A stretch of 64,000 nucleotides of DNA, from NCBI GenBank assembly GCA_000004985.1, contig GG738931.1; one strand, given 5' to 3'. Positions 1,565 to 38,026 of the stretch are shown in pieces. The position numbers were made by a program, and so were the translations under genes. Numbering within the stretch: the first letter of the stretch is position 1; each line of letters begins with the position of its first letter. Under the pieces are notes generated by a model that searched no databases, was not told where the DNA came from, and saw only the letters and a list, made by a program, of their open reading frames with translations. Origin of the DNA: Naegleria gruberi. Its lineage: Eukaryota.

Positions 1565-1614
1565 NNNNNNNNNNNNNNNNNNNNNNNNNNNNNNNNNNNN
1601 NNNNNNNNNNNNNN
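1565..1614. other. Assembly gap (50 N).
   Basis: Run of n. Confidence 0.95.
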
Positions 1615-1865
1615 AACCCAACCCAAACCCAAACCCAAACCCAAACCCAACCCAAACCCAAACCCAAACCCAAACCCAAACCCAAACCCAAACCCAAACC
1701 CAAACCCAAACCCAAACCCAAACCCAAACCCAAACCCAAACCCAAACCCAAACCCAAACCCAAACCCAAACCCAAACCCAAACCCAAACCCAAACCCAAA
1801 CCCAAACCCAAACCCAAACCCAAACCCAAACCCAAACCCAAACCCAAACCCAAACCCAAACCCAA
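1615..1865. repeat. Interstitial (CCCAAA)n telomere-repeat array, about 42 units.
   Basis: Same hexamer as 1-388 with a few variant units (AACCCA). Confidence 0.8.
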
Positions 1866-1921
1866 GCCTAAAAACCCAAGCCTAAAAACCCAAGCCTAAA
1901 AACCCAAGCCTAAAAATCTAA
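1866..1921. repeat. Four copies of a 14-bp CCCAAGCCTAAAAA telomere-associated satellite.
   Basis: Direct tandem repeats, with degenerate copies continuing to ~1990. Similar motifs recur at 5281-5310. Confidence 0.6.
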
Positions 1922-2525: not shown

Positions 2526-5162
2526 NNNNNNNNNNNNNNNNNNNNNNNNNNNNNNNNNNNNNNNNNNNNNNNNNNNNNNNNNNNNNNNNNNNNNNNNNNN
2601 NNNNNNNNNNNNNNNNNNNNNNNNNNNNNNNNNNNNNNNNNNNNNNNNNNNNNNNNNNNNNNNNNNNNNNNNNNNNNNNNNNNNNNNNNNNNNNNNNNNN
2701 NNNNNNNNNNNNNNNNNNNNNNNNNNNNNNNNNNNNNNNNNNNNNNNNNNNNNNNNNNNNNNNNNNNNNNNNNNNNNNNNNNNNNNNNNNNNNNNNNNNN
2801 NNNNNNNNNNNNNNNNNNNNNNNNNNNNNNNNNNNNNNNNNNNNNNNNNNNNNNNNNNNNNNNNNNNNNNNNNNNNNNNNNNNNNNNNNNNNNNNNNNNN
2901 NNNNNNNNNNNNNNNNNNNNNNNNNNNNNNNNNNNNNNNNNNNNNNNNNNNNNNNNNNNNNNNNNNNNNNNNNNNNNNNNNNNNNNNNNNNNNNNNNNNN
3001 NNNNNNNNNNNNNNNNNNNNNNNNNNNNNNNNNNNNNNNNNNNNNNNNNNNNNNNNNNNNNNNNNNNNNNNNNNNNNNNNNNNNNNNNNNNNNNNNNNNN
3101 NNNNNNNNNNNNNNNNNNNNNNNNNNNNNNNNNNNNNNNNNNNNNNNNNNNNNNNNNNNNNNNNNNNNNNNNNNNNNNNNNNNNNNNNNNNNNNNNNNNN
3201 NNNNNNNNNNNNNNNNNNNNNNNNNNNNNNNNNNNNNNNNNNNNNNNNNNNNNNNNNNNNNNNNNNNNNNNNNNNNNNNNNNNNNNNNNNNNNNNNNNNN
3301 NNNNNNNNNNNNNNNNNNNNNNNNNNNNNNNNNNNNNNNNNNNNNNNNNNNNNNNNNNNNNNNNNNNNNNNNNNNNNNNNNNNNNNNNNNNNNNNNNNNN
3401 NNNNNNNNNNNNNNNNNNNNNNNNNNNNNNNNNNNNNNNNNNNNNNNNNNNNNNNNNNNNNNNNNNNNNNNNNNNNNNNNNNNNNNNNNNNNNNNNNNNN
3501 NNNNNNNNNNNNNNNNNNNNNNNNNNNNNNNNNNNNNNNNNNNNNNNNNNNNNNNNNNNNNNNNNNNNNNNNNNNNNNNNNNNNNNNNNNNNNNNNNNNN
3601 NNNNNNNNNNNNNNNNNNNNNNNNNNNNNNNNNNNNNNNNNNNNNNNNNNNNNNNNNNNNNNNNNNNNNNNNNNNNNNNNNNNNNNNNNNNNNNNNNNNN
3701 NNNNNNNNNNNNNNNNNNNNNNNNNNNNNNNNNNNNNNNNNNNNNNNNNNNNNNNNNNNNNNNNNNNNNNNNNNNNNNNNNNNNNNNNNNNNNNNNNNNN
3801 NNNNNNNNNNNNNNNNNNNNNNNNNNNNNNNNNNNNNNNNNNNNNNNNNNNNNNNNNNNNNNNNNNNNNNNNNNNNNNNNNNNNNNNNNNNNNNNNNNNN
3901 NNNNNNNNNNNNNNNNNNNNNNNNNNNNNNNNNNNNNNNNNNNNNNNNNNNNNNNNNNNNNNNNNNNNNNNNNNNNNNNNNNNNNNNNNNNNNNNNNNNN
4001 NNNNNNNNNNNNNNNNNNNNNNNNNNNNNNNNNNNNNNNNNNNNNNNNNNNNNNNNNNNNNNNNNNNNNNNNNNNNNNNNNNNNNNNNNNNNNNNNNNNN
4101 NNNNNNNNNNNNNNNNNNNNNNNNNNNNNNNNNNNNNNNNNNNNNNNNNNNNNNNNNNNNNNNNNNNNNNNNNNNNNNNNNNNNNNNNNNNNNNNNNNNN
4201 NNNNNNNNNNNNNNNNNNNNNNNNNNNNNNNNNNNNNNNNNNNNNNNNNNNNNNNNNNNNNNNNNNNNNNNNNNNNNNNNNNNNNNNNNNNNNNNNNNNN
4301 NNNNNNNNNNNNNNNNNNNNNNNNNNNNNNNNNNNNNNNNNNNNNNNNNNNNNNNNNNNNNNNNNNNNNNNNNNNNNNNNNNNNNNNNNNNNNNNNNNNN
4401 NNNNNNNNNNNNNNNNNNNNNNNNNNNNNNNNNNNNNNNNNNNNNNNNNNNNNNNNNNNNNNNNNNNNNNNNNNNNNNNNNNNNNNNNNNNNNNNNNNNN
4501 NNNNNNNNNNNNNNNNNNNNNNNNNNNNNNNNNNNNNNNNNNNNNNNNNNNNNNNNNNNNNNNNNNNNNNNNNNNNNNNNNNNNNNNNNNNNNNNNNNNN
4601 NNNNNNNNNNNNNNNNNNNNNNNNNNNNNNNNNNNNNNNNNNNNNNNNNNNNNNNNNNNNNNNNNNNNNNNNNNNNNNNNNNNNNNNNNNNNNNNNNNNN
4701 NNNNNNNNNNNNNNNNNNNNNNNNNNNNNNNNNNNNNNNNNNNNNNNNNNNNNNNNNNNNNNNNNNNNNNNNNNNNNNNNNNNNNNNNNNNNNNNNNNNN
4801 NNNNNNNNNNNNNNNNNNNNNNNNNNNNNNNNNNNNNNNNNNNNNNNNNNNNNNNNNNNNNNNNNNNNNNNNNNNNNNNNNNNNNNNNNNNNNNNNNNNN
4901 NNNNNNNNNNNNNNNNNNNNNNNNNNNNNNNNNNNNNNNNNNNNNNNNNNNNNNNNNNNNNNNNNNNNNNNNNNNNNNNNNNNNNNNNNNNNNNNNNNNN
5001 NNNNNNNNNNNNNNNNNNNNNNNNNNNNNNNNNNNNNNNNNNNNNNNNNNNNNNNNNNNNNNNNNNNNNNNNNNNNNNNNNNNNNNNNNNNNNNNNNNNN
5101 NNNNNNNNNNNNNNNNNNNNNNNNNNNNNNNNNNNNNNNNNNNNNNNNNNNNNNNNNNNNNN
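2526..5162. other. Assembly gap (2637 N).
   Basis: Run of n. ORFs called across it are artifacts. Confidence 0.95.
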
Positions 5163-7606
5163 CACCCAATCCATATAATAATTGAACACAATATTTAACG
5201 TAGATAAAATCGATTTACTTTGAAAAGTAATTTTAAAAATTATACGCCAAAATAGAGCAGCTTTCTTGTAGTGTTGAATTTATTTGTCCGAAAACCCAAG
5301 AATCTAAACCTAAAAACCTATGCTAATTGAATATTCAATCTCATACCGGAAAAGATTCTTATTTGCGGAAAAAGATTCGAATCTTAGCGAATCTTCAATC
5401 AATTTCGAATGGAAACTGAATCTAAGAATCCAAGAATATCGAAATCTTTACCACTTTCCAAATAACAACGCAAACAACAAATACACCAAATCTCGATATC
5501 TAGATAGAAAGTATTTACTTTTTTTAAAACTTTACTGAAAAACCTTTCCAAAAGCCCAAGATTCACTTAAAGACTCTATATTAGATCATAAAGACCATGG
5601 TGCCACCGAAGTAACAAATCAAAACAACTCTAATCCATACCCAACCAACCTTTTATATTCATGATTTCAACTCTAACATGCCATCTGATAAACTATGGAC
5701 ACGGATGAATTTCTGGAAAATGACCACCCTATGAAACATTACCATCATGTTCCACATCTCAAATAATGTATATAATTCAGTTTTTAGACGTTTTGGTGAA
5801 CATTCCATCTTTCAGTAAGGTAAAGAGTGATTTATCAAGGTTGACTTAGGAAATCTTGAATATAGAAAACCATATCCTCAATCAACAAAATACATATCAA
5901 TCGATTGGAAATCATTAGTACATCTCGAAAATATCATTTATTTTATGTTTTGAAATCTCTCCTTTACCTCTTTTGGTCAATTAAGACAATTAAGGATGAG
6001 AATATAGGAAAAATTACCAATCTCAAAATAATTGATAATATCGAGTTCTACATCTCAAATAAAGTGGACTTTCATCAAATTATATGTTTTCATTTCAAGA
6101 AATGCATTCAGTAGATAGTACATGGTGATATTTCAAGAGAATGGAAATCTGAAGGATACAGAAACAACTCCATTTTCACTGAAATTGATATCATGGTATG
6201 CAGACACTCCAATTAGTATGTGGTATCAATTTCATGAATATTGGTTCAGTAGATGTCGAGATGTCAACTCTATCAATTTACTATAGATATTTGACATGAT
6301 ATCATAGATTATACTCCAACTCACTCATTTTACATATAACAAGTCTAGAATTGATACCACATAGTCTATATATCAATTAAATACATCTACAATAGTTTAG
6401 AAACATTTCAAACTACTTTCATAAAACTANNNNNNNNNNNNNNNNNNNNNNNNNNNNNNNNNNNNNNNNNNNNNNNNNNAGTTGAACACCATCGATAGCA
6501 AATCATCTCTAGTATGACATATATTTTTTATTGATCAATTTCTGATCATTCTTTTACCTTTCCCTAGGAATAGTAAAATCGCAATATATTGAGTGAGGAA
6601 TTGCTGATTATCTCAATAATTAGATAAGAAACCATACACAATCTATAGCCCACTGGATAGCTGAGATTGTAACCTATTTAATGATGTATATCATTGATTA
6701 TGTATTTCAATAATAATGAAGATCCAATGAGTACGAAACGATAACCAACCTCTCAGGTCTTTACGATACAAGAGACGTTAATAAATATTACAATTTACAT
6801 GTTACTTATTCATATTGCATGCAAATCAACCTGATTCAATCTACAAAGGTTGGTAGTTGCACCACTTCGTGGCGAAACTACCCATCCACGATGAATCAAC
6901 ATTAGATTCACTTCCATTCAACTCAATTTGACCGTTATAATCAATAAATCAATGAAATGTTTCTTTATTAGCAAACCCTATTCAATCTAATGAGTAGATT
7001 CACGTCCCAAACATTTGACTTCTAAAAGTCCATAATTCAAAAGTTAGTACTGACCTGACCTTTAAATATCTATCAATACAAGAAATGAAACCATCAAATT
7101 TACATCATTAATAGATGATAAGAAATATAATCAATGATATAAATCTTCACTAAGTAATCTCTTAAATAACCCAAATAAATCAACTCTGAATACTAAGTAC
7201 ATTATTTGGAAGAGCCACATAGATTTTGGATACTATCTGAACTGAAATGAGGTAGAAAGAGTACAATCTTCAACACCAAACAATTTATGTCTTATTAATA
7301 TTGTTCCAAGTGCGATAATTAGGACACAACATGAAATTTTACAAAATACCAATTATAATTTCGAATTAGTTGGTGAAATACGTAAAAATAATGCTAATGT
7401 TGCATATATTTGCTTCGGATTCTGAATTATTGATTTTAAAATCCGGGGAAATAAAGAAGGCCGAAAGCAAAATATCTAATATTGAAATAGAGGAACCATT
7501 CGATGGAACTACCACTTTACTATCAAAATGTTATGAAAATTAAGAGTATCATTCAGTTGATGCTTCTTCATCATATAATTTTCAATTTCCATTCATCATT
7601 CAGAAT

Positions 7607-9114: not shown

Positions 9115-12100
9115 CTAATCCAAGAAATGTGCAGGTGAATCTGACGTTGCTGACGAAAATATTCCACTCGGCACCTTACTCTCCACCACTCTCATCTCCT
9201 TCTCTACAGCCAAATGATTTCCACCAACCATCAATCTCTGCAAAACTCCATCAAACGGATACAAAAAATTATCTTTTTGCAAGTTTTTCACCTTTTCATT
9301 GATTTTCTTTTTGAAAATTTTCAATTTTTGTTCACCAATTTGTTTGTAGAGGATTAGTGAGAGAGTGTCCATGAAGCGATCGTAGAGTTCTTTTTGTTGG
9401 ATGGTTTTGAAGGTTGAGACTTTCCATTTGATTTGGAAATGGAGATGACAGAAGGCAACGAATAGACTTTCGAATATAGCATCCTTGAGGGAGGAATCTA
9501 CTGTTGAAGTGTTGATGAGAGATTCGGATTGTTCCAAAACTGAAAAGAGAGTTTCTTCTAATCTGACATTGAATATTAAGCAGGAATAGAGACGGCAATA
9601 AATTGCACAAATGATTACATCATAGTAGGTTTCGTCCTTTCCAGAATATTCATTTGAAAATGTAAGATTTTTGAGGTAATCCGTTGGTTTGGAGAGAATT
9701 TGGAACAACTTTGGAACTGGAAGGGATAACAAGGTGGAGAGGAATATTAATCCTTTTCCTTGAGATGTCACAAGTTTTCCACTATTGTCAGATGAAAAGC
9801 TCAGGAAATCCTTAGATGGAAAATGACATCCATAACAATTGGCAGCTGCTGATAATCCAACGACTAAATATTTAGCATCTCCCATTAGGGTTTTGAGTGT
9901 TCCTATCTTTCTTGGTTTGAAATTCAATTCTCCTAATGAAATATTTGAAGCAATGGTGGCATTGGAAAGTTGTTTCACAAATTCTTCACATTTTTGCTTG
10001 AAAATTTCTTCAGTTGGCTTGGAAAAGACGAAACTATCTGAAATGACATCATCCGGAATTGGAGTTTCAGTAGCTCCTGTCTTCATGTGTGATATGAATT
10101 CGTCAGTGGTCAATTCACCAATTAGAATCAAACCTCCATCAACTGAGCTTTTCAAAACTTGGACAATATCTTTAGGATTCATCAATTCAATTTGTTTTGG
10201 ATGTTTCATTGGAAAGACGATTGATTTTCCTTGATTTCCAATAATCCAACTATCTCTATGTCTATTCACTCCATCATCATTCAAATACGAAACTCCATTA
10301 TTGAGCTCAATATCCCAAACATTGGCACGCAATGATAATCCATCAAATATGGTCATATAGCAATTATATTCGGTTTGACTGATATGTAAATCTGTAAAGA
10401 ATAAAATATCGTATGGATTTTCCTCACCTTCCTTAATAGGAACATAACTTGGAGCAATACGAATGTCCATATTGTGTTTCTCAATATCATCTCCTTTGTA
10501 AACAAGAGTAACTGAAACTGAAACTCTTTCAAAATAGCTCACATGTTCAGAGATTGAAAATTCTACTTTCTGTTCAAATGTTGAAAGTGATGAAATGTTT
10601 GTCACATCAATAAATAGTGAACTGTTTTGCTTGTCCATGACACATGATGGAATTCCAAAATCACTGACTTGGATTTTAGGATCATAATTGAGTCTCAATC
10701 CAATCTTTGATCCATCTCCTCCCTTATCGAGACCTGACACATTTTTCACAATAATTGAAATGTTTCCTCTTCCTTTCTTATCCAAAACTCTTGTGGACGA
10801 AACGGATTGAATTTCAATTGGTAATTGAATAAACATGGAACCTTCCTTTCCAGAATGGTGTACTCTATCAAAATATTTGGTACATGTTGTAAAAGAGGCA
10901 GTATCTCTATATGAACCGTAATTCATAACTTGTGTTCTTGCTCTTTCAGCTATTTTCCCCTTAAATTCAAAATCCTTTACAGTAATTTCTTCATCTGGTG
11001 CCAAAGCTTGACCAAGTAAATAAACCATTCCGTTGGATGTGAAATTCTCTCCATTATTCACTTGGAAGACGGCTCCTGGTGGTGCAGTCAATCCTCCACT
11101 ATTTCTAATTTTGAATGATTTGATTAAAATTTCTTCACCTGGTTCAATAATTCCATCATCCACAACTGGAATAATCTTGAAATCAGACATGTAAATTTTG
11201 TACTTGATTGGAGATTGCTCTTTCACTAATCTGGTTTGTGGATCGAGAATTCGATATAAAATTGTTCCAGAACTTCCATCAACTCCTTTGTGACCATTAA
11301 ACCCACTTGTTCCATTTCCTCCTATACTTCCAGTTTTACCATTTAATCCTGATCTTCCTTGAATTCCTTTTTCGTATTTGATTTCTTCTTCAATTGGTGA
11401 ATTATCTTTCGGATTTATACTGACAATCTTTTTGGTTGATTCTCCAGGTTCTCCTCCTTCTCCACCAGATCTGTTTTCACTCATGTAAACAATTTTGAAT
11501 AATTAAACTAAAAAACTCACCCTCCAATGCCAAATCTTGATTATTGTCACATTAAGGTAATTATTAATGTGTCACAATAGAATACTTACTCTCCACCCAA
11601 TCCACCTTGTCCTGCCGATCCTGCAGAACCTCCCAAACCATATTTACCTCCACTACTCGTTGCAAAACAATAATCTAACAAGTATGGATTGATTGCATCA
11701 ATGTGAATTATTCCACCATTTCCTCCATTTCCACCTCTGAATTTTAATAATCCAAATGCAATGAATTGTGTCAACTTACCTTCCTCCGTAACCACCACAT
11801 CCACCATAACCTCCACTGTGTAAAATTTGTGTAAATTTTCTCAAGTAGATCAATAAAAAACTTACTCTCCTCCATCAGCACCACTTTTTTGAAATGATTA
11901 ATCAAAAATTTTCAAACATTTTACTTACTCTCCACCACTGATTCATCATTAGAATTTTGATCAACATCTTGTAAACTTACGATTTTCCTCTAAATTTAGT
12001 TTAGGATTTTGAATAATTAACAGTCAACTTACTCTTCACCATTGTGCCCTTTTGTTCCCTTCTTTCCCTTCCCGCCAATACCACCATTTCCTCCTCTAAA

Positions 12101-12806
12101 GTTTGAATAATGTATTCCAATAAATAATTGAGGCTTTCTACTTACTTTCCACCATTTCCACCACTTTAAAAACATTCGAAAAGATTCACATAAACTACTT
12201 ACTTTCCACCATTACCTCCACTTTTTTCATTAAATAACTTTACAAATCCATCAATAACTTACTCTCCTCCATTACCACCACTTAAAATATTCAATCAACA
12301 TTACAAAATTTCTCAAACACTTACTCGCCTCCATTCGAAACACATGAAATTTCACAAACACATCCTTTATATTCCAAATCTCCACTCACTACCATATTAT
12401 TAGAACTGATATCACCCTCCAGAATGATCTTAATTGGATTTCCATTCATGCCACTCTCTGCATCCTCACCATGCCCTCCATGTCCACCACTATAACCATT
12501 TCCACCTCTTCATAAAGTAAATCGACACATAATAGAAGCAAAACTACTCACCTCCCACCACTCTCACCTTCACACCCATACGTTGCATTCAATGCATGCT
12601 TTCCCTCTTCTCCGATTGCTCCGTGCAATCCACTGTTTTATCCCACACATGATGAGATGAACAAATTGATCACGATCAAAAACAGTTCAAACAACCCAAA
12701 AACAACACACAACAACTTACTCACTTCCTCTCTTCCCAGAGCGACCCTTCACTCCCGTATGATCAACAATCTTTTGTTGTTGATGATTAGCTCCAATTTC
12801 TGACAT
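9115..12806 (-). CDS. Collagen-like, Gly-rich protein. The N-terminal region is encoded by about 11 mini-exons, followed by a 2.4-kb terminal exon.
   Basis: ATG at 12806 (MSEIGANHQQQ...GVKGRSGKRGS). Exons at 12806-12721, 12632-12552, 12507-12325, 12280-12263, 12220-12203, 12163-12146, 12095-12033, 11937-11929, 11883-11866, 11815-11780, 11736-11590 and ~11479-9115. Every intron starts GTAAGT (one GTGAGT) in phase 2. Exons encode GGNGG and G-X-Y units. The last exon carries 11 perfect G-X-Y triplets (GIQGRSGLNGKTGSIGGNGTSGFNGHKGVDGSS). Confidence 0.55.
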
Positions 12807-17249: not shown

Positions 17250-18806
17250 ATGACTGTAATACAAAATAACAACAAGAAGAGAAAGCACGAAGAATCATCA
17301 CAATTTCCTTCCGATGATGAATTTTGTGAGGATGGAAAAATAATGGACGAATCGGATTTATTTGAAGAATTGATGGAAGTGAATTGTAAATTAATTTCAT
17401 TGGCGAAAAAGGCAAAAGTTGTTGATTGTCGTTATTTTATGTACAATAGTGGAATAATTGATGAATTTATTGGCAATTTTTATGAATTTTTAAAACAAGC
17501 TGAGTTGCAACAGAAGAAGGCTGTAAAATCCTCTTCGGAACAGTTTAATTCGGATGTTTTATCAGAGATTTATCAATTCTTGGATACATCAACGGTCATA
17601 CATGGATGTGGATTGGTTTCTAAATTGTGGAATCAATCATTAAAGGGATTGAAATTGAAAGTCAGAGCTCAAAACATTGACATTTTATTGAATAGTTCAA
17701 TAATTACAAACATCACTCAATTGGAATTGGTTTCTACCACTGATGAAACATTTAAATTACTTTCAAATTGTAGAAATTTGGATAAACTGAACTCATTAGA
17801 TTTGTCAAGTAATAAGTTAGAAAAGGCATCCATTGATCATTTAATTAAATGTCATATGCCAAATTTGACAGAATTGAATTTGGCTTATATCAAACAATTT
17901 ACAGAAACAGCAGCAATAGAATTGTTAAACAGCCGTTTTATGAAAAGCATTAAGAAATTGGATTTATGTGAATCTTTAGAGAATTGTTCAAAGAATTTAT
18001 TTGCTTCCATTTCACAATCAAAAATTTTGAATCAAATCACCCACTTGAAAATTAATAGGTCCACTTATAATAGATACATAACGGACAAAGAGCATGGAAT
18101 TGATATTTTCTTGAATGATAAATTCAGTTTAGAACATTTAGAAACAGTACATTACCAATTGGATGTTCTTCCTAATTTATTAACAAATGGAAATTATAAG
18201 AATTTGACCTCACTTGATATTTGCAGTTGTAAAATTAGAAATCAAGTATTTGCAGATTTGATTGTTTCACCAAATTTACCCAATCTCACAAGTCTAAATG
18301 CTACGTATTTGCGTGAAGTGGATGACGACAAATCAGTTGCAGAATTTCCTCCAAATAGTGAAAGTTCACTTACTGATTTGGATTTGGGTAACTTCAGAGT
18401 AGCATCATTTCCTAAACTTGTTGATCATTGTCCAAAACTAAAGAAACTCATAGTTTATCCAGCAAATACCGATGAGGAATCAAAGAAAATACTTCTCAAT
18501 ATGATGAAATCTCCAAATTTATCTAATGTAGAATATTTGGACATATTATGTTGGAACGAAACATCAGAAATTATATTTACCAATCCAATCTTGTCTAATT
18601 TGAAGGAATTACATTTATCACCACTTCATTATGATGATACCGTAGACGTAAAATTAGTATCAAATTGTACAAATTTGATAAATTTAACAACGTTAATACC
18701 TTATACTGACATGGTAACTAAAGAGTGCTTACAGGAATTCAAGAAGAATCCAACCTTTGCAAAATTGAATATACGAGATTTTATGGGACGACCATTGATG
18801 ATTTGA
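17250..18806 (+). CDS. F-box-like/LRR protein, family A paralog 1 (518 aa).
   Basis: True ATG at 17250. F-box-like motif LNSDVLSEIYQFLDTSTVIHGCGLVSKLWNQS, then LRRs (NLTELNL, LTSLDICSCK, LSNLKELHL). About 45-50% identical to the 21596 ORF. Confidence 0.75.
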   Translation: MTVIQNNNKKRKHEESSQFPSDDEFCEDGKIMDESDLFEELMEVNCKLISLAKKAKVVDCRYFMYNSGIIDEFIGNFYEFLKQAELQQKKAVKSSSEQFNSDVLSEIYQFLDTSTVIHGCGLVSKLWNQSLKGLKLKVRAQNIDILLNSSIITNITQLELVSTTDETFKLLSNCRNLDKLNSLDLSSNKLEKASIDHLIKCHMPNLTELNLAYIKQFTETAAIELLNSRFMKSIKKLDLCESLENCSKNLFASISQSKILNQITHLKINRSTYNRYITDKEHGIDIFLNDKFSLEHLETVHYQLDVLPNLLTNGNYKNLTSLDICSCKIRNQVFADLIVSPNLPNLTSLNATYLREVDDDKSVAEFPPNSESSLTDLDLGNFRVASFPKLVDHCPKLKKLIVYPANTDEESKKILLNMMKSPNLSNVEYLDILCWNETSEIIFTNPILSNLKELHLSPLHYDDTVDVKLVSNCTNLINLTTLIPYTDMVTKECLQEFKKNPTFAKLNIRDFMGRPLMI

Positions 18807-21595: not shown

Positions 21596-23119
21596 ATGAC
21601 GGTAATTCAAAACAAGAAGAGGAAACATGAAGAATCATCACATCATGATGATGATGGAAAAATGTTTGATAATGCTGATAATATTGAATCGGTTTTATTT
21701 GAAGAAATGACGACAGTTAATTCCCAATTGCTTTCATTGGCAAACAAGATGAAACTGGTTGATAATATTTATTTTACAAAGAATACCGAAATGATTGATG
21801 AATTTATTGGAAATATTAACGAATTTTTGAAACAATTAGATATGCGTAGGAAGAAGGCTTTTTCTGAAAAATTGAATTCCGATATTTTGTCTTATATTTA
21901 TCAATTCTTGGATACAAATATTCTTAAAGAATGTTGTGGTTTAGTTTCTAAATTATGGAGACAATCAATAGGATTGAAAGTGAAAGTGAGAGATATTGAT
22001 ATTGATAAATTTGTAAATTGTTCACTAATTGAAAATGTAACGTACCTACAATTGGTTGATACTACTGAAGAACCAGAAACATTTAAATGGCTTGTAAATT
22101 GTAGAAATTTGGATAACTTGAAATCATTAGATTTATCTGAAATCGAATTGGAAAATGTAGAGTATTTAATGAAATGTCACATGCCTAATTTGACAGAATT
22201 GAATTTGGCGAAAAGGGTATCTGATGAGGAAGTGGTAATAGAATTGCTTACCAGTAGTTTCATGACCAGTGTTAAGAAATTGGATTTATCATATTCATTC
22301 TACGAATTTCCAATTGATATATATGAATCAATTTCAGAATCTAACTATTTGAGTCAAATCACTCATTTGAACCTTGATAATATGGAATATTTAGAATTTA
22401 CTGGGCTGGATTTACTGCTGAAAGATAAAGTGAATTTGGAACACCTACAAATACGCAAGCATTGTTTGGTTAGTTATCCAAATTTATTTACGAATGGAAA
22501 TTATATGAATCTCACATATCTTGATATTTCCAGTTGTCAATTAAGTAGAAATCAAGAATTTATAGATTTAATGTTTTCTCCAAACTTGCCAAATCTTACA
22601 ACACTCAAGGGCAAGGCGTTATGGGCCGAAGAAGATGGCAAAGAAAAAGACATAGTTGTTGAAATTCCTCCAAACAGTCAAAGTTCTCTCACTGATTTAG
22701 ATATAAGATATTGTAGGGTTGGATTTTATCCATCACTCTTTAATCACTGTCCAAAACTAAAGAAATTATCAGTTTATTCTTTACATGATGAGGAATCAAA
22801 GAAATTACATCTCAATATGATGAAATCTCCAAACTTGACAAATTTAGAATATTTGAAAATGGATAGTTGGAATGAAGCATCAGAAATTATCTTTACCAAT
22901 CCAATCTATTCGAATTTAAAGGAATTACATTTAGTAAGACCATTCAGGAATGGTGAAAACTTAAATGTAGAACTAGTATCAAACTGTAACAATTTGGTCA
23001 ATTTAACAACATTAACTGTATCTGTTGAAACACAAGACTTGCAAGAATTCCAGAAAAATCCCACATTTTCCAAACTGAAAAGAATATCCAATATTGTAAT
23101 ACCACAAAAAAGGCTATGA
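21596..23119 (+). CDS. F-box-like/LRR protein, family A paralog 2 (507 aa).
   Basis: ATG at 21596. The N-terminus MTVIQNKKRKHEESS is almost identical to paralog 1. F-box-like motif LNSDILSYIYQFLDTNILKECCGLVSKLWRQS, then LRRs. Confidence 0.75.
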   Translation: MTVIQNKKRKHEESSHHDDDGKMFDNADNIESVLFEEMTTVNSQLLSLANKMKLVDNIYFTKNTEMIDEFIGNINEFLKQLDMRRKKAFSEKLNSDILSYIYQFLDTNILKECCGLVSKLWRQSIGLKVKVRDIDIDKFVNCSLIENVTYLQLVDTTEEPETFKWLVNCRNLDNLKSLDLSEIELENVEYLMKCHMPNLTELNLAKRVSDEEVVIELLTSSFMTSVKKLDLSYSFYEFPIDIYESISESNYLSQITHLNLDNMEYLEFTGLDLLLKDKVNLEHLQIRKHCLVSYPNLFTNGNYMNLTYLDISSCQLSRNQEFIDLMFSPNLPNLTTLKGKALWAEEDGKEKDIVVEIPPNSQSSLTDLDIRYCRVGFYPSLFNHCPKLKKLSVYSLHDEESKKLHLNMMKSPNLTNLEYLKMDSWNEASEIIFTNPIYSNLKELHLVRPFRNGENLNVELVSNCNNLVNLTTLTVSVETQDLQEFQKNPTFSKLKRISNIVIPQKRL

Positions 23120-30840: not shown

Positions 30841-32323
30841 TTAATAAGATCTTCCAAAACTTTTGCCACACTTTTTAAGGTTCTTTGGTTTGGGCACTTT
30901 CAAATTCTTCACCTTTGAAAAGGTTGGATTTCTCTTGATTTCTTCTTCCAATTCAGCTAAATACTCTGTTCTCCAAAGGTCCAGGGTTTTTAAATTGACT
31001 AGAGTGGTGCATTTCGACACGAGGGAAATATCTAAAGTTTGGTTAGAGGACTCGTGTAGTTCCAAACGTAATTCCTGTAAATTGGAATAAATTGGACTGG
31101 TAAAGATAATCTCCACTGTTTCTCCACAACAGGTAATATCCAAATATTCCAAATTTGATAAGCTAGGAGACTTCATCATGTTGAGAAGCTCTTTCAGTGA
31201 AATGTATTCATCCTCACCACCAGGAAGAACTTTTAGTTTCTTTAGCTTTGGACAATGATCCAAGAGTGATGGAAATAGCACAAGTTCACAATATCTGATA
31301 TCCAAATAAGTTACCGAACTTTGACTATTTGGAGGAAATGTAGCAACAGTTTCATCGTGATATAAATTGTTAGCTTTGAGTGTTGTAAGTTTTGGTAAAT
31401 TGGGAGAAACAATCAAATTTGCAAAATCTTGATTTTTCATACTAGAATTGTTAACATCCAGAAATGTTAGATTCTTAAGGTTTCCGTTTGTTAAAAAATT
31501 CGTTTGTTTGAATCGATATCCTTCCATTTCTAAATATTCCAAATTCACCTTATCTTCAATAAATAAATCGATTCCAATAATATCTTTTTCCTCATCATCA
31601 TTTCCAAAATTATTAATTTTCAAATGAGTGAGTTGTTTCATATATTTAGAATGTGAAATTGATTCAATAAAGCTCTTTGAACAATCTCTTATAGAATGGC
31701 TTAAATCTAATTTCTTAATGCTTGCCATGAAAGGACTGTTGAATAATTCCTTTGCTATCGTATTTTCAGTAAATTCTTATCGTATCCACCAAATTCAATT
31801 CTGTCAAATTTGGTGTATGACATTTCGTTAAATGCTCAACAGCAACATTAGATAAGGAAAGTAAATCTAATGATTTCATCTTGTCCAAACTTCTACAATT
31901 AGCAAGTGATTTAAATGCATCACCAGAAATAATCAAGGTCAATTTGGCGACATTCTTAACTAACGAACCATTCAGAAAATTGTCCAAGTTTTCACCTCTC
32001 ACTCCCACTTGCAATCCATCCACTGATTGTCTCCACAATTTTGAAACCAAACAACAACACTCCTGGAGTGTAGTATTATCCAAGAATTGATAAATATGAG
32101 ACAAAACATCGGAATTCAATCGATCAGAAGAAGCCTTCTTCCGATTAAAATCCAATTGTTTTAAAAATTCGTGAATATTACCAATAAATTCATCAATCAT
32201 TCCATTGTTATACATAAAGTAACAACTATCCGCTAACTTCACCTTATTTACCAAGGAAATTAATTGCGAATTCACTGTCGTCATTTCATTATATAAAACC
32301 GTTTCAATATTTTCATCATACAT
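30841..32323 (-). pseudogene. F-box-like/LRR family A paralog 3, frameshifted and 5'-decayed.
   Basis: Two ORFs (31766-32323 and 30841-31728) align end to end with paralogs 1 and 2. There is a frame slip near 31745 (NLTELNLVDTIR / EFTENTIAKELFNSPFMASIKKLD). Homology continues upstream of the first ATG (DAFHHHDDDVK ~ ESSHHDDDGK) with no start codon. Confidence 0.55.
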
Positions 32324-33583: not shown

Positions 33584-36500
33584 TTACACTCCAGTCGAGG
33601 AAGAAGCTGAATAATCCTTTTCCTTCTTCCTCTTTTTATACAGTAATGCAACACTCACACCAATGACAATTCCAACAACGAAGAAAATTAATGAAGAAGC
33701 AATGACTGAAACTAGAACTGCAATAATAACAGTGGAATCGTTTGAGGTTTGATCTTGTTTGGGTTGGATGGTGGTGCTTGGTGAATTTTGTTTCTTAATG
33801 TTAATGTCAATGACTGAGAAGGTGGTCAAGTGAGTGGTGAGACATTGAATGGAAACTTGGAATTGATTATTCGAAACTCGTTGAATGAAAGAAAAGAGAG
33901 TAGAAACACCAGTATCACTCCATGAATTGATGTTTGCATCAAAGAACATGCAAGTAAAGTTTCTAATGCTTTCGTTCGAATCTGCTTCAATTGAAATATT
34001 GGCAAAATTAATGATAATTGGATTTGCCAAATTCGAAACTTGGAATTTAGAACCGTCATCTTTGAGGAATGAGACAGAAACTACATCACTGTTGATGGCT
34101 CCAATTTTTTGCTTGGCACTCGTCTTGTTTTGGACTGTTGCAATGATTGTTAAATCTTGAGAAGTGGAAAGTGAACTAATGTCTGATGGAAATTTGACAG
34201 AAACTGAACTATACTTGTGGAAATGCAATTCTTCTGCATCTAGTTCAGTAAGATCAGTCACTGCTCTCTTAATTAATTCCACATCATCTGATTGAGTAGT
34301 TGTGCTACATGTCACATTTCCATTTATAACGTCAACCACAGAAACACAAACTCTATTCGAACAATTCTTTCCAAACCATCCTTCATTACAAAGGCATGAA
34401 TCTGGAGCTGGACATTTTCCATTTCCAGAACATACATTCAAATCAGATGATAACAATGAATAACAAACTGGAATTTCACAATTTGCTCCAACGTATCCAT
34501 CTTGACATTGACAATTATCTTTTGACATGCATTCACCATGTTGGCTACAAACATTTGAATCGTTGAATAACATTCCATAGCAAGTATGATTCTTGGTTTG
34601 ACATTCGTTTCCAATAAATCCTTCACTACATAAACATTGATTTGTGGAATTACACACTCCGTGTCCAGAACAAACTAATGAACTAGTAAATAAAGTTCCA
34701 AAACATTCGAATTGACTACAATCGTTTCCAGAGTATCCATTGGAGCAGGAACAAGTATTTGGAGCACTGCAACTGCCATGTCCAGAACAAACTGCAGAAT
34801 TACTTGGAACAATATCAAAGCATTTGAATGAACTGCAATCACTTCCACTGTATCCAGTTTCACATGAGCAATTATTTGATGAGAGACAATTACCATGTCC
34901 AGAACAAACTACGGAATCATTGAATAATAATCCGTAACAAGTAATTGGAGGTGTAGGTTGTGGAGGTGGATTTTGACATGAAGAGCCAGTGTATCCTTCG
35001 CTGCATAAGCATTGGTTTGAGGAGTTGCATGATCCATGTCCAGAACAAACTGTGGAATCATTAAATAAAATTCCAAAACAAGTAATTGGTGGAGGTTGCA
35101 CAATAAATTCACATGAAGATCCATAATATCCAGTGGCACAAGTACAATTATCCTTGGACACGCATTGGCCATGTCCAGAACATACACTTGTCGATTCGTT
35201 GGCCAAAACTCCAAAACAAGTCAGTGGAGGAATTGGAGCATTCTGACAATTACTTCCAGAGTAACCAACACTACACGTACAATTATCAGTCGCAATACAG
35301 TTTCCAAATCCAGAGCAAACACTGGAATCATTAAAATTCACACCAAAACAAGTATAATTCAATGGAATGACAATAGTGGACTCACAATTATCTCCATAAA
35401 ACCCATTGTAACATGAACAATTATTCTTGGAAATGCAATCACCATGAGAAGAACAAACCAAAGAAGAGTTGAAATGAATACCAAAACAGGAATGGTTTCG
35501 TGTTTCACACATGGAGCCAATGAATCCCTCATTACAAGAGCATTGATCAGTGACATTACATTGTCCATTTCCAGAACACACCAGTGAGTTATTGGCAAGA
35601 TATCCAAAACATGAGATTGGATATTCAGGTTGTAAAATTTGTTTGATTCTCTTGATGGTGCAACCCTCTGCATAGAGAATATCACCATTTGCATTCAAAT
35701 ACAAAGACTTGGCTTGATTGATGAATGAAGTGTTGGTTTGTGTGGAGTTATCATATAAGGTAATTGTAGAAATTAAATTGTCATTCAAAGTTACACGTCT
35801 AATTCTTGATTGTTCAGAAATAATGAGCTCTCCATTTTGAGTTAATAAAATACTGTTTGGAGAATCAATGGTTGCATTGATTGCAAGACCTCCATCAGAA
35901 ACTGATCCTAAATTCGATCCAGTTCCAGCAATAATTGTCAAAACTCCATTCGAATCTAACTTTTTGACAGTATGAGTCGATTTTTCACTAAAATAAATAT
36001 CCAAGTTATTGAGGTTGACGGTCAGATCCGAAATTATTACACCCATAGATCGATACAAGGTTACAATGGTTCCATTATTTGCAAATACCTTACTAATCTT
36101 TCCAGTGCTGGCAATTAGCAAATCGTCGTTAGGTAAAACAAAGAGAGATGTTGGATTGGCAAGAACTGCATTCAAGGCAGATCCTCCATCATTGTCAGAA
36201 CCTGTTGGATTACCATTACCAGCATAATCAAAAGTCATTCCACCAACTACCTTTCTAATACGATGGTTATTCGAATCCGCAATAAATAATTCATTTCTAG
36301 AGTTGAAAGCCAACTTGTTTGGTGAATTGAAAAGAGTTGAATTTCTCAAAGTGTAATTTCCACTATAACCAACCAAACCAGTACCAGCATAAATGTCAAA
36401 ATTTGAATTACCAGATCTAATTGTGGAGTAATCGGAAATGTACAAGCTTCCATCCATTCCAAATGTGAAACTGTTGAGGGAGGAGCTAAATCTCACCAAT

Positions 36501-37672
36501 GAAGATGGAACAGCATTAGAATACAAGGTTTTCGAGTTGATTATTCCACCACTCACATTTCTAATTCTTCCATTATCAGTATCTGAAATTAGAAACATGT
36601 TATTTGCTTCATCATGAAACAAATCACTTGGATTATTCAAAAGAGCTGATGTGGCACTTCCTCCATCTCCAGAAAATCCCTTAGTCATTGCTGTTCCTGC
36701 AATTGTGTAAATCTTATCACCAGTTGCATATCTCAATAAGTGATTTCCTGATTCGACAATGTATAAAGTAGTTTCGGCAGCATTTAAGAAAATTCCAGTT
36801 GGAACGCTCATTTTCTGATCTGAAATCTTGAGACCATCTGCTGTGTAACCATCTCCCTTACTACCAGCAAAATTCTTTGGTTTTCCGTCTTTAATTTGCA
36901 TCAAGGAAACCATATTCTTCATGTCATCTGACAAGTAAACATCACCGGTCGAGGAAGGGAATACTCTCGAGCTATAACCAACAGGATCTGTTCCAGTACC
37001 TGTGCAACTGTATGGAACTGTAAATGTTTTGGTAATTTGACTTGAGGAAATGTTCAATTCTCTAATGATACAATTTCCATAATCGAGAAAGGTCATAGTT
37101 GTGGCAGAAGTGAATCTGATACTTCTTGGAATGCTCAATCTCATGGATAGAGCATTTCCTGTGTTTCCATCGAAACCTTGAACTCCAGTTCCCGCCACGG
37201 TTGAAACAATTCCTGAACTGGCCGAAATCTTTCTAATACAATGGTTCCAATCGTCAGTAAAGAAAACATCACCATTTGATGAGTCGACAATGACACTAGT
37301 TGGTCCATTGATCTTGGCATTGACTGCTAAAGACCCATCTCCTGAATAACCTCTTCTCAATTCTGATCCACCAATCAAATCTACGAGTTGACCAGAAGCT
37401 GTTATTTTGCTAACGGCATTTCTCTCCAAATCGGTAAAGAAAACCTCCTGGGTAGAAGGAACCCAGAAGAGACCCACAGGTTTACCAACTCTTGTTCTCC
37501 ATTGAGCTAAATAGTTGGCACATTGAGATGAGTCACCTGCCAAAGTCTCTACTAAATAATTACTTGTTCTGAGCCATCTATTGGGTGGAAATTGTTGAGC
37601 TCTTGTTTGTTGGTGAGATATCAAGAGGCACATTACCCAAATAATTGCCAAAAACAAGTTGTTATTGTTCAT
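33584..37672 (-). CDS. Large type I membrane protein: signal peptide, NHL-like beta-propeller region, about 20 tenascin-type EGF repeats, stalk, TM.
   Basis: ATG at 37672 (MNNNNLFLAIIWVMCLLISHQQTRAQQ). NHL-like motifs (FISDTDNGRIRNV, FIADSNNHRIRKV). Repeated CSGHGxCxxxNxCxCxxGYxGxxC units. C-terminal TM VIIAVLVSVIASSLIFFVVGIVIGVSVALL followed by YKKRKKEK. Single 4.1-kb exon. Confidence 0.7.
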   Translation of the reverse strand: MNNNNLFLAIIWVMCLLISHQQTRAQQFPPNRWLRTSNYLVETLAGDSSQCANYLAQWRTRVGKPVGLFWVPSTQEVFFTDLERNAVSKITASGQLVDLIGGSELRRGYSGDGSLAVNAKINGPTSVIVDSSNGDVFFTDDWNHCIRKISASSGIVSTVAGTGVQGFDGNTGNALSMRLSIPRSIRFTSATTMTFLDYGNCIIRELNISSSQITKTFTVPYSCTGTGTDPVGYSSRVFPSSTGDVYLSDDMKNMVSLMQIKDGKPKNFAGSKGDGYTADGLKISDQKMSVPTGIFLNAAETTLYIVESGNHLLRYATGDKIYTIAGTAMTKGFSGDGGSATSALLNNPSDLFHDEANNMFLISDTDNGRIRNVSGGIINSKTLYSNAVPSSLVRFSSSLNSFTFGMDGSLYISDYSTIRSGNSNFDIYAGTGLVGYSGNYTLRNSTLFNSPNKLAFNSRNELFIADSNNHRIRKVVGGMTFDYAGNGNPTGSDNDGGSALNAVLANPTSLFVLPNDDLLIASTGKISKVFANNGTIVTLYRSMGVIISDLTVNLNNLDIYFSEKSTHTVKKLDSNGVLTIIAGTGSNLGSVSDGGLAINATIDSPNSILLTQNGELIISEQSRIRRVTLNDNLISTITLYDNSTQTNTSFINQAKSLYLNANGDILYAEGCTIKRIKQILQPEYPISCFGYLANNSLVCSGNGQCNVTDQCSCNEGFIGSMCETRNHSCFGIHFNSSLVCSSHGDCISKNNCSCYNGFYGDNCESTIVIPLNYTCFGVNFNDSSVCSGFGNCIATDNCTCSVGYSGSNCQNAPIPPLTCFGVLANESTSVCSGHGQCVSKDNCTCATGYYGSSCEFIVQPPPITCFGILFNDSTVCSGHGSCNSSNQCLCSEGYTGSSCQNPPPQPTPPITCYGLLFNDSVVCSGHGNCLSSNNCSCETGYSGSDCSSFKCFDIVPSNSAVCSGHGSCSAPNTCSCSNGYSGNDCSQFECFGTLFTSSLVCSGHGVCNSTNQCLCSEGFIGNECQTKNHTCYGMLFNDSNVCSQHGECMSKDNCQCQDGYVGANCEIPVCYSLLSSDLNVCSGNGKCPAPDSCLCNEGWFGKNCSNRVCVSVVDVINGNVTCSTTTQSDDVELIKRAVTDLTELDAEELHFHKYSSVSVKFPSDISSLSTSQDLTIIATVQNKTSAKQKIGAINSDVVSVSFLKDDGSKFQVSNLANPIIINFANISIEADSNESIRNFTCMFFDANINSWSDTGVSTLFSFIQRVSNNQFQVSIQCLTTHLTTFSVIDINIKKQNSPSTTIQPKQDQTSNDSTVIIAVLVSVIASSLIFFVVGIVIGVSVALLYKKRKKEKDYSASSSTGV
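34380..35660 (-). repeat. Tandem ~93-nt coding repeats (the EGF units) inside the 33584-37672 CDS.
   Basis: Periodic Cys spacing in the translation, and repeated TGTTCTGGACATGG-type DNA words. Confidence 0.5.
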
Positions 37673-38026
37673 ACTGTTGTTGTTGTGTTGTTTTTTCTTA
37701 ATAATTGTAGTTGTATGGAGCTGAAATGAATAGGGTCTATAAATCAAAAATTGGTGGACCTCAGATCTTCCCATTCCTTCATGGTTAGACCAGTACTTTC
37801 TAAAATGGATTTTTGTATATTCGATCTCCAAAAATATAAGTCCATGGCAAAATGAAAAGTTGTAATGAAATTGGCGGGTTGAAATCAAAAAATACTTGTT
37901 TAGAATATCATACAATTGTAGACAATTAAAATCCAAGTTTAGTTAGTCTTCATCTATCTTACAATATAAAGGTGACAATGTCTAGAAGTGGAAACCATAA
38001 ATGTTATATTTAGTGTTAATCAGTAA

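What the first reader, a model, noticed from the sequence alone, without database searches (positions are those of the whole stretch)
9115..12806. Collagen-like gene whose N-terminal region is a tandem array of spliceable mini-exons
On the minus strand, 11590-12520 is built of repeating units. Each is an 18-nt exon (T GGT GGT AAT GGA GGA GA, encoding D/N-GGNGG) plus a 40-50-nt GTAAGT…AG intron. They are interspersed with larger Gly-rich and G-X-Y exons of 9, 36, 63, 81, 147 and 183 nt. Every intron is phase 2 and every exon length is 3n, so any exon can be gained, lost or skipped without breaking the frame. This is a minisatellite at the exon-intron level, reminiscent of the 54-bp exon organisation of animal fibrillar collagens. 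It precedes a 789-aa domain of unknown function that starts with 11 perfect G-X-Y triplets. Copy-number variation here would directly tune the length of the Gly-rich arm.
Basis: seen in the sequence. Interest (0 to 1): 0.75.

Follow-up and report, generated by a model that had tools for sequence, protein, structure and literature searches.

The report
Micro-exon array encoding glycine-triplet arm
A Naegleria gruberi gene for a large uncharacterised (DUF7932-family) protein builds its glycine-rich N-terminal arm from a chain of tiny, frame-neutral exons of 9 to 63 bases; the chain is real and old, but it looks fixed in length, not like a variable, tunable repeat.

Summary
On the minus strand, 12806-9115 threads into one open 14-exon gene of about 1018 aa. 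All 13 introns are 39-88 nt, GT..AG and phase 2, and every internal exon is a multiple of 3 nt. The window is Naegleria gruberi NEG-M.

Three independent lines support the splice chain:
- The spliced N-terminus aligns without gaps to the Gly-rich arm of DUF7932-family homologues.
- A N. gruberi paralogue and a N. lovaniensis annotated gene have the same micro-exon layout, including shared 63-nt and 147-nt exons.
- A second strain differs at 17 sites upstream of the big exon. All 17 are in predicted introns and none in the 650 nt of predicted exons.

- Only four exons are 18 nt.
- The introns are not alignable and no tandem DNA repeat is detected.
- Copy number is identical in the two strains, and the first (GGX)10 block has the same length in all six aligned family members.
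- The protein is not a true collagen. The Pfam collagen score is below threshold, there is no signal peptide, and GGX predominates over GXY.
- Sponge and nemertean homologues lack the micro-exons, so the array is Naegleria-specific.

Protein function remains unknown.

The parts
12721..12806 (-). Exon 1 (86 nt). ATG at 12806. Starts the first GXY run (GVKGRSGKRGS-).
   Evidence: The donor at 12720 keeps the GXY register across the junction.
12552..12632 (-). Exon 2 (81 nt), phase 2-2.
   Evidence: No strain differences in this exon.
12325..12507 (-). Exon 3 (183 nt). Gly-rich sequence plus the beta-strand segment IKIILEGD..CEISCVS. Equivalent to the 180-nt exon of the paralogue.
12146..12280 (-). 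Three tandem 18-nt micro-exons (12263-12280, 12203-12220, 12146-12163), each encoding two GGX triplets. They are separated by introns of 42 and 39 nt.
   Evidence: ungapped invariant Gly columns; same three exons in the paralogue.
12033..12095 (-). Exon 7 (63 nt, 7 triplets). The same length and position in the N. gruberi paralogue and in N. lovaniensis.
11780..11989 (-). Micro-exons 8-11: 9 nt (11981-11989), 9 nt (11929-11937), 18 nt (11866-11883) and 36 nt (11780-11815). Together 72 nt, the same total as in the paralogue (18, 9, 9, 18, 18).
11590..11736 (-). Exon 12 (147 nt). Contains GGNGGNGG, then IIHIDAINPYLL.., then a Gly-rich stretch. It is 147 nt in the paralogue and 5+142 nt in N. lovaniensis.
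11521..11535 (-). Exon 13 (15 nt, encodes -FGIGG). The least certain exon.
   Evidence: N. lovaniensis has GGEFGRPGFGG at the aligned place, but the paralogue has no intron here.
9115..11470 (-). Exon 14 (2356 nt including the TAG stop). Sub-features: GXY x11 at 11266-11367; DUF7932 beta-sandwich at 10921-11190; two further beta-sandwiches; an alpha/beta domain at about 9820-10407; a helical domain at about 9190-9759.
   Evidence: Pfam; 264 homologues; AF2 model, pLDDT 87.
11471..12720 (-). The span that holds the 13 phase-2 introns (88, 44, 44, 42, 39, 50, 43, 43, 45, 50, 43, 54 and 50 nt; GC 0.18-0.35, against 0.33-0.56 for the exons in the span).
   Evidence: All 17 differences from a second strain, including 7 indels, lie in these introns.

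Best explanation
This is a genuine protein-coding gene of Naegleria gruberi, about 1018 aa. It belongs to the uncharacterised, mainly eukaryotic DUF7932 family.

Its N-terminal arm is a set of glycine-triplet blocks, GXY and mostly GGX. One of these is an uninterrupted 74-residue run with Gly at every third position. The arm probably folds as packed polyproline-II / polyglycine-II-type helices, not as a secreted collagen triple helix.

In Naegleria the DNA for this arm is cut by 13 very short phase-2 introns into symmetric exons. Inside the Gly block each exon is a whole number of 9-nt triplets. The introns are most likely removed constitutively, one by one, by intron definition, to give a single product of fixed length.

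The layout is old. It is shared by a 43%-identical paralogue and by N. lovaniensis, and it is under purifying selection.

Intron-less (sponge) and normally-spliced (nemertean) homologues carry a Gly arm of the same architecture, and in the sponge protein the first GGX block has exactly the same triplet count. The introns were therefore most likely added to, or spread through, a pre-existing repeat at the same codon position of successive triplets. Growth of the arm by duplication of exon-intron units is less likely.

What is shown: the splice chain is consistent, it is conserved, selection acts on the exons, and family membership holds. What is inferred: constitutive splicing, the PPII/PGII fold, and the mode of intron origin. 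The biochemical function of the protein is not known.
For: - **Splice chain.** It is open and all phase 2.
- **Organism.** Nine neighbouring ORFs are exact NAEGRDRAFT proteins on a 138,333-nt contig.
- **Family.** DUF7932 scores above the gathering threshold. There are 264 representatives at E<=1e-3. All 40 members scanned carry DUF7932.
- **Product.** The spliced N-terminus aligns to five homologues with invariant, ungapped Gly columns 115-142.
- **Independent gene models.** The N. lovaniensis protein KAG2386573.1 threads exactly onto its DNA with exons 217, 9, 27, 63, 9, 9, 9, 9, 18, 5, 142. The N. gruberi protein XP_002679508.1 threads onto a N. gruberi-like contig with exons 180, 18, 18, 63, 18, 9, 9, 18, 18, 147, 2365, all phase 2. 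A skipped 18-nt exon sits in its 111-nt intron. Once this is restored, about 10 of 13 intron positions coincide with those of the window gene.
- **Selection.** Against a second strain at 98.4% identity, 17 of 17 differences upstream of the big exon are intronic. None is in the 650 exonic nt (P about 6e-6), and there is no copy-number change.
- **Lineage specificity.** The sponge gene is a single 3897-nt ORF. The nemertean arm lies in exons of 144-267 nt.
- **Fold.** AF2 on the paralogue gives block-mean pLDDT of about 79-93 (mostly about 90) over the Gly blocks, with neither helix nor strand assigned. GGX repeats are known to form PGII sandwiches (PMC10216338).
Against: - No transcript data were available here, so splicing, and above all constitutive splicing, is inferred.
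- The 9-nt exons and the 15-nt exon rest on frame, homology and polymorphism only.
- The annotated paralogue model omits one 18-nt exon. This could be a genuine skipped isoform and not an annotation miss.
- Neither the 1018-aa or 1013-aa model nor the 789-aa ORF is in the 15-billion-protein collection. The public annotation of this locus therefore could not be compared.
- Model coordinates could not be inspected. The PPII/PGII reading rests on pLDDT, the DSSP blanks and sequence.
- The second Gly block does vary by up to 3 triplets among distant homologues.
- Only two strains were compared.
Confidence: 0.8

Rival explanations
1. The array is an exon-level minisatellite or micro-exon cassette system. 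Units are gained, lost or alternatively skipped, as in schistosome micro-exon genes, so that the length of the Gly arm varies between isolates or isoforms.
For: - All internal exons are symmetric (phase 2-2), so any of them could be skipped in frame.
- The annotated N. gruberi paralogue protein lacks exactly one 18-nt exon that is present in the DNA with good splice sites.
- Intron presence or absence differs between paralogues at 9-nt steps.
- Distant homologues differ by whole triplets in the second Gly block.
Against: - The exon complement is identical in two strains with 1.6% divergence, and every difference is intronic.
- The first GGX block has the same length in all six aligned members, including an intronless one.
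- There is no tandem repeat at the DNA level and the introns cannot be aligned.
- Micro-exons make up only about 5% of the coding sequence.
Confidence: 0.15
2. The 789-aa ORF (9115-11484) is expressed alone from its own ATG. The upstream Gly-rich pieces are untranslated, or a decayed remnant.
For: Prokaryote-style gene callers on metagenome and Logan contigs call exactly this ORF (P0002; P0001).
Against: - The ATG at 11484 lies inside a well-formed intron.
- The upstream exons have zero substitutions, against 17 changes in the interleaved introns.
- The spliced product reproduces the conserved family arm residue by residue.
- The paralogue and N. lovaniensis have the same structure.
Confidence: 0.03
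3. The arm grew within Naegleria by tandem duplication of exon-plus-intron units. The intron copies have since diverged beyond recognition.
For: - All introns sit at the same codon position of the repeat, in phase 2.
- Introns 7 and 13 share a 15-nt identity that only 2 of 300 shuffles reach.
- Several introns share the start GTAAGTTGAC.
Against: - The first GGX block has the same triplet count in the intronless sponge protein and in four other aligned members. The nemertean arm has the same architecture in ordinary exons. Under this rival the length match would have to be a coincidence.
- Overall k-mer sharing among the introns is not above the null.
Confidence: 0.2

Closest known systems
[quoted passage not shown] 2010, as described in PMC4350168)
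   Same: Runs of very small, symmetric exons whose lengths are multiples of 3, flanked by ordinary exons. Any of them could be skipped in frame.
   Different: - In MEGs most of the coding region is micro-exons, the products are secreted, alternative splicing is documented, and the genes are reported as restricted to platyhelminths.
- Here the micro-exons are about 5% of the CDS and encode a conserved structural repeat in a protein without a signal peptide. There is no evidence of variation.
Fibrillar collagen gene structure (54-bp and related exons; from general knowledge)
   Same: Exon lengths are multiples of 9 nt, so each exon encodes whole Gly-x-x triplets and all introns have the same phase.
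   Different: - Collagen exons start with an intact Gly codon (phase 0) and are typically 45-162 nt. They encode Pro-rich GXY in secreted trimeric proteins.
- Here the introns are phase 2 in the third codon of the triplet, the exons are 9-63 nt, the triplets are mostly GGX with almost no Pro, and the Pfam Collagen score is below threshold.
PGII-sandwich / PPII-bundle domains (mycobacterial PE_PGRS, snow-flea antifreeze protein; PMC10216338)
   Same: GGX triplets in which the first Gly is strictly kept. AF2 predicts a confident structure with neither helix nor strand.
   Different: - PGRS domains are bacterial, encoded without introns and highly polymorphic in length.
- Here the block is in a large multidomain eukaryotic protein and appears to have a constrained length.
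- A fold match was not demonstrated.
DUF7932 family proteins (Pfam PF25560): N. gruberi XP_002679508.1, N. lovaniensis KAG2386573.1, Oopsacas minuta KAI6661803.1, Lineus longissimus XP_064649594.1, Terrestrivirus A0A3G4ZNF8
   Same: Same full-length architecture: GXY, strand, (GGX)n, strand, (GGX)n, GXY, DUF7932, two beta-sandwiches, alpha/beta domain, helical domain.
   Different: Only the Naegleria members examined have the micro-exon array. Some animal members add N-terminal extensions, and one member each has a C2 or a PX domain.

Membership tests
DUF7932 protein family (PF25560) | Pfam domain match above the gathering score | tested here: met
   37.4 bits against a cut-off of 27, E=4e-9, at residues 99-188 of the 789-aa ORF.
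DUF7932 protein family (PF25560) | Full-length homology and shared architecture with other members | tested here: met
   phmmer gives P0001 at E=2.4e-196 over residues 4-789, and 264 representatives at E<=1e-3. The N-terminal arm aligns as well.
Collagen (triple-helix repeat, PF01391) | Pfam Collagen match above the gathering score | tested here: not met
   24.2 and 19.8 bits against a cut-off of 27.2. Only 11 of 40 family members match even at E<=1e-3.
Collagen (triple-helix repeat, PF01391) | Long Pro-rich GXY run, a secretion signal and a trimerisation context | tested here: not met
   The longest pure GXY runs are 8 and 11 triplets with almost no Pro. The N-terminus MSEIGANHQQQKIVDH is hydrophilic, so no signal peptide is apparent by inspection. 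Trimerisation is not testable here.
Micro-exon genes in the schistosome sense | Most of the coding region made of very small symmetric exons | tested here: not met
   Symmetric micro-exons are present (eight of 36 nt or less). They sum to 150 nt of a 3057-nt CDS. Definition taken from PMC4350168.
Micro-exon genes in the schistosome sense | Protein variants generated by alternative splicing of the micro-exons | not testable with these tools
   No transcript data were reachable. N. gruberi RNA-seq exists as PRJEB23822.
Minisatellite / tandem DNA repeat | Head-to-tail DNA copies detectable as a tandem array | tested here: not met
   TRF finds only 8-11-nt micro-arrays and no unit near 60 nt. Aligned units share only the exon and the donor site.
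Minisatellite / tandem DNA repeat | Copy-number polymorphism between individuals | tested here: not met
   The second strain (L003) is collinear with the window, with indels of 1-4 nt only, all in introns. Only two strains were compared.
PGII-sandwich / PPII-bundle fold | GGX triplets with invariant first Gly | tested here: met
   Residues 115-188 have Gly at 100% of first positions and 76% of second positions. The Gly columns are invariant across homologues.
PGII-sandwich / PPII-bundle fold | Three-dimensional match to a solved PGII/PPII bundle | tested here: inconclusive

The most novel reading that the evidence does not exclude
In Naegleria a spliceosomal intron was copied repeatedly into the same codon position of successive GGX triplets of a pre-existing, length-constrained repeat. 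Candidate mechanisms are reverse splicing or intragenic gene conversion. The result is an intron every 9-18 nt. This would be a natural, datable example of sequence-directed intron proliferation within one gene. It would also show that a spliceosome can process 9-nt exons flanked by introns of about 43 nt.
Probability: 0.3. Interest if true: 0.7.

Novelty: new variant of a known kind. Interest (0 to 1): 0.5.

Why it matters
Tiny symmetric exons are known from schistosome micro-exon genes, and triplet-respecting exons are known from collagens. Here the same design appears independently in a heterolobosean amoeba, in an unrelated protein with no signal peptide. It is conserved across paralogues and species.

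Homologues elsewhere carry an arm of the same architecture with no introns or with ordinary ones. The locus is therefore a compact natural experiment on two questions: how introns are gained in repeated coding sequence, and how exons as short as 9 nt are spliced.

On the practical side, public gene models in this family appear to miss micro-exons. One 18-nt exon is skipped in XP_002679508.1, and no protein matching the window gene was found in the protein collection.

The work also draws attention to a widespread family (protists, sponge, nemertean, a giant virus) for which a full-text search for 'DUF7932' found no papers. The family has a confidently predicted glycine-triplet module.

Tried and rejected
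- **Word-indexed homology searches.** The 789-aa ORF alone gave nothing. The family alignment was swamped by true collagens through Gly-rich words. The alignment trimmed of Gly-rich parts again gave nothing. Names were recovered instead through exact cluster look-ups.
- **Exact look-ups for an existing annotation or transcript.** Neither the 1018-aa or 1013-aa model nor the 789-aa ORF was found.
- **Bacterial origin.** The scan of 185,579 prokaryotic genomes gave one 3.7-kb MAG contig, probably eukaryotic contamination. This idea was rejected.
- **Residual homology among introns.** Not supported overall. The TTCGAA motif, enriched in the paralogue's introns, also occurs in introns of unrelated genes. 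It was therefore rejected as evidence of common descent.
- **Threading the 23-kb nemertean gene.** The exact threader timed out and was replaced by tblastn.
- **Literature.** There are no papers on DUF7932 and none on Naegleria micro-exons.
Full report
**What is in the sequence.**

Read on the minus strand, the region has the hallmarks of a eukaryotic gene. GC is about 33% overall. Short AT-rich segments that begin GTAAGT or GTGAGT and end AG alternate with G-rich pieces.

A script listed every strong donor and the acceptors downstream of it. Taking the first acceptor each time gives a single open frame from the ATG at 12806 to the TAG at 9115. An in-frame TAA lies 30 nt upstream of the ATG.

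The gene has 14 exons: 86, 81, 183, 18, 18, 18, 63, 9, 9, 18, 36, 147, 15 and 2356 nt. It has 13 introns: 88, 44, 44, 42, 39, 50, 43, 43, 45, 50, 43, 54 and 50 nt. Every intron is phase 2 and every internal exon is a multiple of 3 nt. Any retained intron would give an immediate in-frame TAA or TGA. Intron GC is 0.18-0.35, against 0.33-0.56 for the exons in this span.

Eleven of the 21 minus-strand GTAAGT hexamers in the whole 64-kb window fall inside this 1.25 kb, and the plus strand has only five. Most other genes in the window are long uninterrupted ORFs. The locus is therefore a local hot spot of introns.

Its picture of a uniform 18-nt array is not. There are four 18-nt exons (three in tandem), two of 9 nt, one of 36 nt, one of 63 nt and an unlisted one of 15 nt.

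**Which organism.**

Nine neighbouring ORFs are exact matches to annotated Naegleria gruberi proteins (NAEGRDRAFT_75899, 75901, 54397 and others), all seen on one contig of 138,333 nt. The window is therefore N. gruberi NEG-M.

My 1018-aa and 1013-aa models and the bare 789-aa ORF are absent from the 15-billion-protein collection. The exhaustive search found no long, near-identical protein. I could not see how, or whether, this locus is annotated publicly.

**Is the splice chain real?**

Three independent lines say yes.

*1. The product.* The 789-aa ORF has a Pfam DUF7932 domain above threshold. An exhaustive phmmer search finds 264 cluster representatives at E<=1e-3.

The longer homologues carry an N-terminal arm with this order: GXY run, strand segment, (GGX)n, short GXY, (GGX)n, a strand segment 'IIIDTxNPxLL', (GGX)n, GXY run, DUF7932. 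My spliced N-terminus aligns to five of them at 39-45% identity. Gly columns 115-142 are invariant and ungapped. Even the 15-nt exon (-EFGIGG-) has a counterpart in N. lovaniensis (GGEFGRPGFGG).

*2. Independent gene models.*
- The closest named relatives are N. gruberi XP_002679508.1 (43% identity, so a paralogue) and N. lovaniensis KAG2386573.1.
- Threading the N. lovaniensis protein exactly through its genomic DNA gives exons 62, 28, 64, 217, 9, 27, 63, 9, 9, 9, 9, 18, 5, 142, 168, 755 and 1766 nt.
- Threading the N. gruberi paralogue through a N. gruberi-like contig, with 3 mismatches, gives 56, 25, 59, 180, 18, 18, 63, 18, 9, 9, 18, 18, 147 and 2365 nt. Introns are phase 2 from the fourth exon on.
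- The paralogue's one long intron (111 nt) contains a perfect additional 18-nt exon..aag|TGGTGGAAATGGTGGAAA|gtaagt. With this exon restored, the window gene and the paralogue both read 18, 18, 18, 63, then 72 nt of micro-exons, then 147. About 10 of 13 intron positions coincide on the protein alignment.
- The 63-nt exon is shared by all three genes. So is the 147-nt exon, which is 5+142 nt in N. lovaniensis.

*3. Selection.* A contig from another sequencing run (L003) is 98.4% identical to window 12755-10829. Upstream of the large exon it differs at 17 places, including all seven indels. All 17 lie in predicted introns and none in the 650 nt of predicted exons (P about 6e-6 under uniform placement). 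The large exon shows eight substitutions and no indels over 642 nt.

The rival idea that the 789-aa ORF is expressed alone from its own ATG is very unlikely. That ATG (11484) lies inside intron 13.

**Is it a variable, tunable minisatellite?**

The evidence is against this.
- Tandem Repeats Finder sees no unit near 60 nt.
- Aligned exon-plus-intron units share only the exon and the donor site.
- Shared k-mers among the introns are not above a shuffled null (86 of 300 shuffles reach the observed count). The exception is one 15-nt identity between introns 7 and 13, which 2 of 300 shuffles reach.
- The motif TTCGAA is enriched in the paralogue's introns, but it also occurs in introns of unrelated genes. 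It is probably a general intron feature.
- The two strains have identical exon complements.
- The first (GGX)10 block has the same length in all six aligned family members. One of these is a sponge protein encoded by a single uninterrupted ORF. The second Gly block does vary by up to three triplets among distant members.

What does vary between the Naegleria genes is the presence or absence of introns at 9-nt steps. After the 63-nt exon the boundaries are:
- 9, 18 and 36 nt in the window gene;
- 18, 27, 36 and 54 nt in the paralogue;
- 9, 18, 27, 36 and 54 nt in N. lovaniensis.

Alternative skipping remains possible. It cannot be excluded without transcripts.

**Is it collagen-like?**

Only loosely.
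- The Pfam Collagen score is below the gathering threshold, at 24.2 and 19.8 against 27.2.
- The pure GXY runs are 8 and 11 triplets long and contain almost no proline.
- The N-terminus is hydrophilic, with no apparent signal peptide.
- One family member carries a C2 domain and one a PX domain. These are lipid-binding modules of intracellular proteins.

The dominant feature is GGX. Residues 115-188 form 25 uninterrupted triplets, with Gly at 100% of first positions and 76% of second positions. All micro-exons lie inside this block, and each is a multiple of 9 nt. The introns therefore respect the triplet repeat.

AlphaFold2 on the paralogue, with 40 family sequences, gives mean pLDDT 85.5. Block means are about 79-93 (mostly about 90) over the Gly blocks, where DSSP assigns neither helix nor strand. 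GGX repeats are known to form polyglycine-II sandwiches in PE_PGRS proteins and in snow-flea antifreeze protein (PMC10216338). A packed PPII/PGII-type module is the most likely structure, but I could not inspect the coordinates.

**The rest of the protein.**

The AF2 model of the 789-aa part is confident, with pLDDT 87 and pTM 0.78. It shows three beta-sandwich domains (the first is DUF7932), an alpha/beta domain and a helical C-terminal domain.

The family is essentially eukaryotic. A scan of 185,579 prokaryotic genomes gave one doubtful MAG contig. A giant virus, Terrestrivirus, encodes a full-length member. A full-text search for 'DUF7932' returned no papers.

**Origin of the array (inference).**

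The sponge homologue has no introns. The nemertean homologue sits in an intron-rich 23-kb gene and encodes the arm in ordinary exons of 144-267 nt. Both have an arm of the same architecture, and the sponge protein has the same triplet count in the first GGX block.

The repeat therefore predates the introns, or is at least independent of them. The Naegleria lineage most likely gained or spread introns at the same codon position of successive triplets. Growth of the arm by duplicating exon-intron units is less likely, because the length match with the intronless sponge protein would then be a coincidence. That model is not excluded.

**Comparison with what is known.**

The closest gene-structure analogues are schistosome micro-exon genes and fibrillar collagen genes. 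Micro-exon genes have very small symmetric exons, but there they make up most of the CDS, their products are secreted, their alternative splicing is documented, and they are reported as restricted to platyhelminths (PMC4350168).

The locus is a member of neither group. It is a member of the DUF7932 family. No paper on micro-exons in Naegleria was found.

**Verdict.**

The 'tunable minisatellite' and 'collagen' interpretations are not supported.

The finding is a new variant of a known kind of gene architecture. It is of moderate interest, chiefly for intron evolution and micro-exon splicing. Existing RNA-seq data (PRJEB23822) would settle whether splicing is constitutive.

Noticed in passing
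window 1565-1915: A telomere-like array (CCCAAA)n, equivalent to (TTTGGG)n, runs from 1615 to about 1865 and is followed by a 14-nt variant repeat. It lies directly after a 50-N gap inside the scaffold. It could be an interstitial telomere or a scaffold misjoin at a chromosome end.
   Followed up: no
L001 825-842 (N. gruberi-like contig; paralogue XP_002679508.1): The annotated paralogue protein skips a well-formed 18-nt exon (TGGTGGAAATGGTGGAAA, flanked by AG and GTAAGT) inside a 111-nt 'intron'. Restoring it brings the (GGX) block to the family's conserved length. This is either an annotation miss or a true skipped isoform.
   Followed up: partly
window 9115-12806: Neither the spliced models nor the 789-aa ORF exists in the 15-billion-protein collection, and no long near-identical protein was found. 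Neighbouring genes, by contrast, are exact NAEGRDRAFT entries. The gene may be missing or mis-modelled in the public N. gruberi annotation.
   Followed up: partly
BFVD entry A0A3G4ZNF8 (Terrestrivirus sp.): A giant virus of the Mimiviridae group encodes a full-length DUF7932 protein (1137 aa; Foldseek E=3e-35 to the Naegleria model). This suggests gene exchange between amoeboid hosts and giant viruses.
   Followed up: no
L001 introns; window 48217, 47921, 12175: The palindrome TTCGAA occurs in 8 of 14 introns of the paralogue, and all 8 copies on that contig are intronic. It also lies near the 3' end of introns in unrelated N. gruberi genes. It may be a lineage-specific intron signal such as a branch-site context.
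   Followed up: partly
window 11492-11506 and 12006-12020: Introns 13 and 7 of the gene share an exact 15-nt stretch (TTAATTATTCAAAAT on the coding strand). Only 2 of 300 shuffles give a match this long. It may be a trace of common intron origin.
   Followed up: partly
window 57235-59766 (-): This EGF-like repeat protein gene shows TTCGAA recurring every 105 nt from 58067 to 58904. The 35-aa repeats are therefore also a tandem repeat at the DNA level. A second NHL/EGF-repeat gene lies at 33584-37936.
   Followed up: no
window 17250-18806 (+), 21596-23119 (+), 30841-32323 (-): A cluster of paralogous F-box/leucine-rich-repeat genes. The first two share an N-terminus (MTVIQN..KRKHEESS).
   Followed up: no
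L005 (JBKAGM010000075.1, 'Gammaproteobacteria MAG'): This was the only hit for the family among 185,579 prokaryotic genomes. It is a 3.7-kb contig with a DUF7932 match at its end, and is probably eukaryotic contamination of the bin.
   Followed up: no
window 2527-5162 and 6431-6479: Runs of N (assembly gaps) explain the very low GC values in the composition profile for 2-6 kb.
   Followed up: yes
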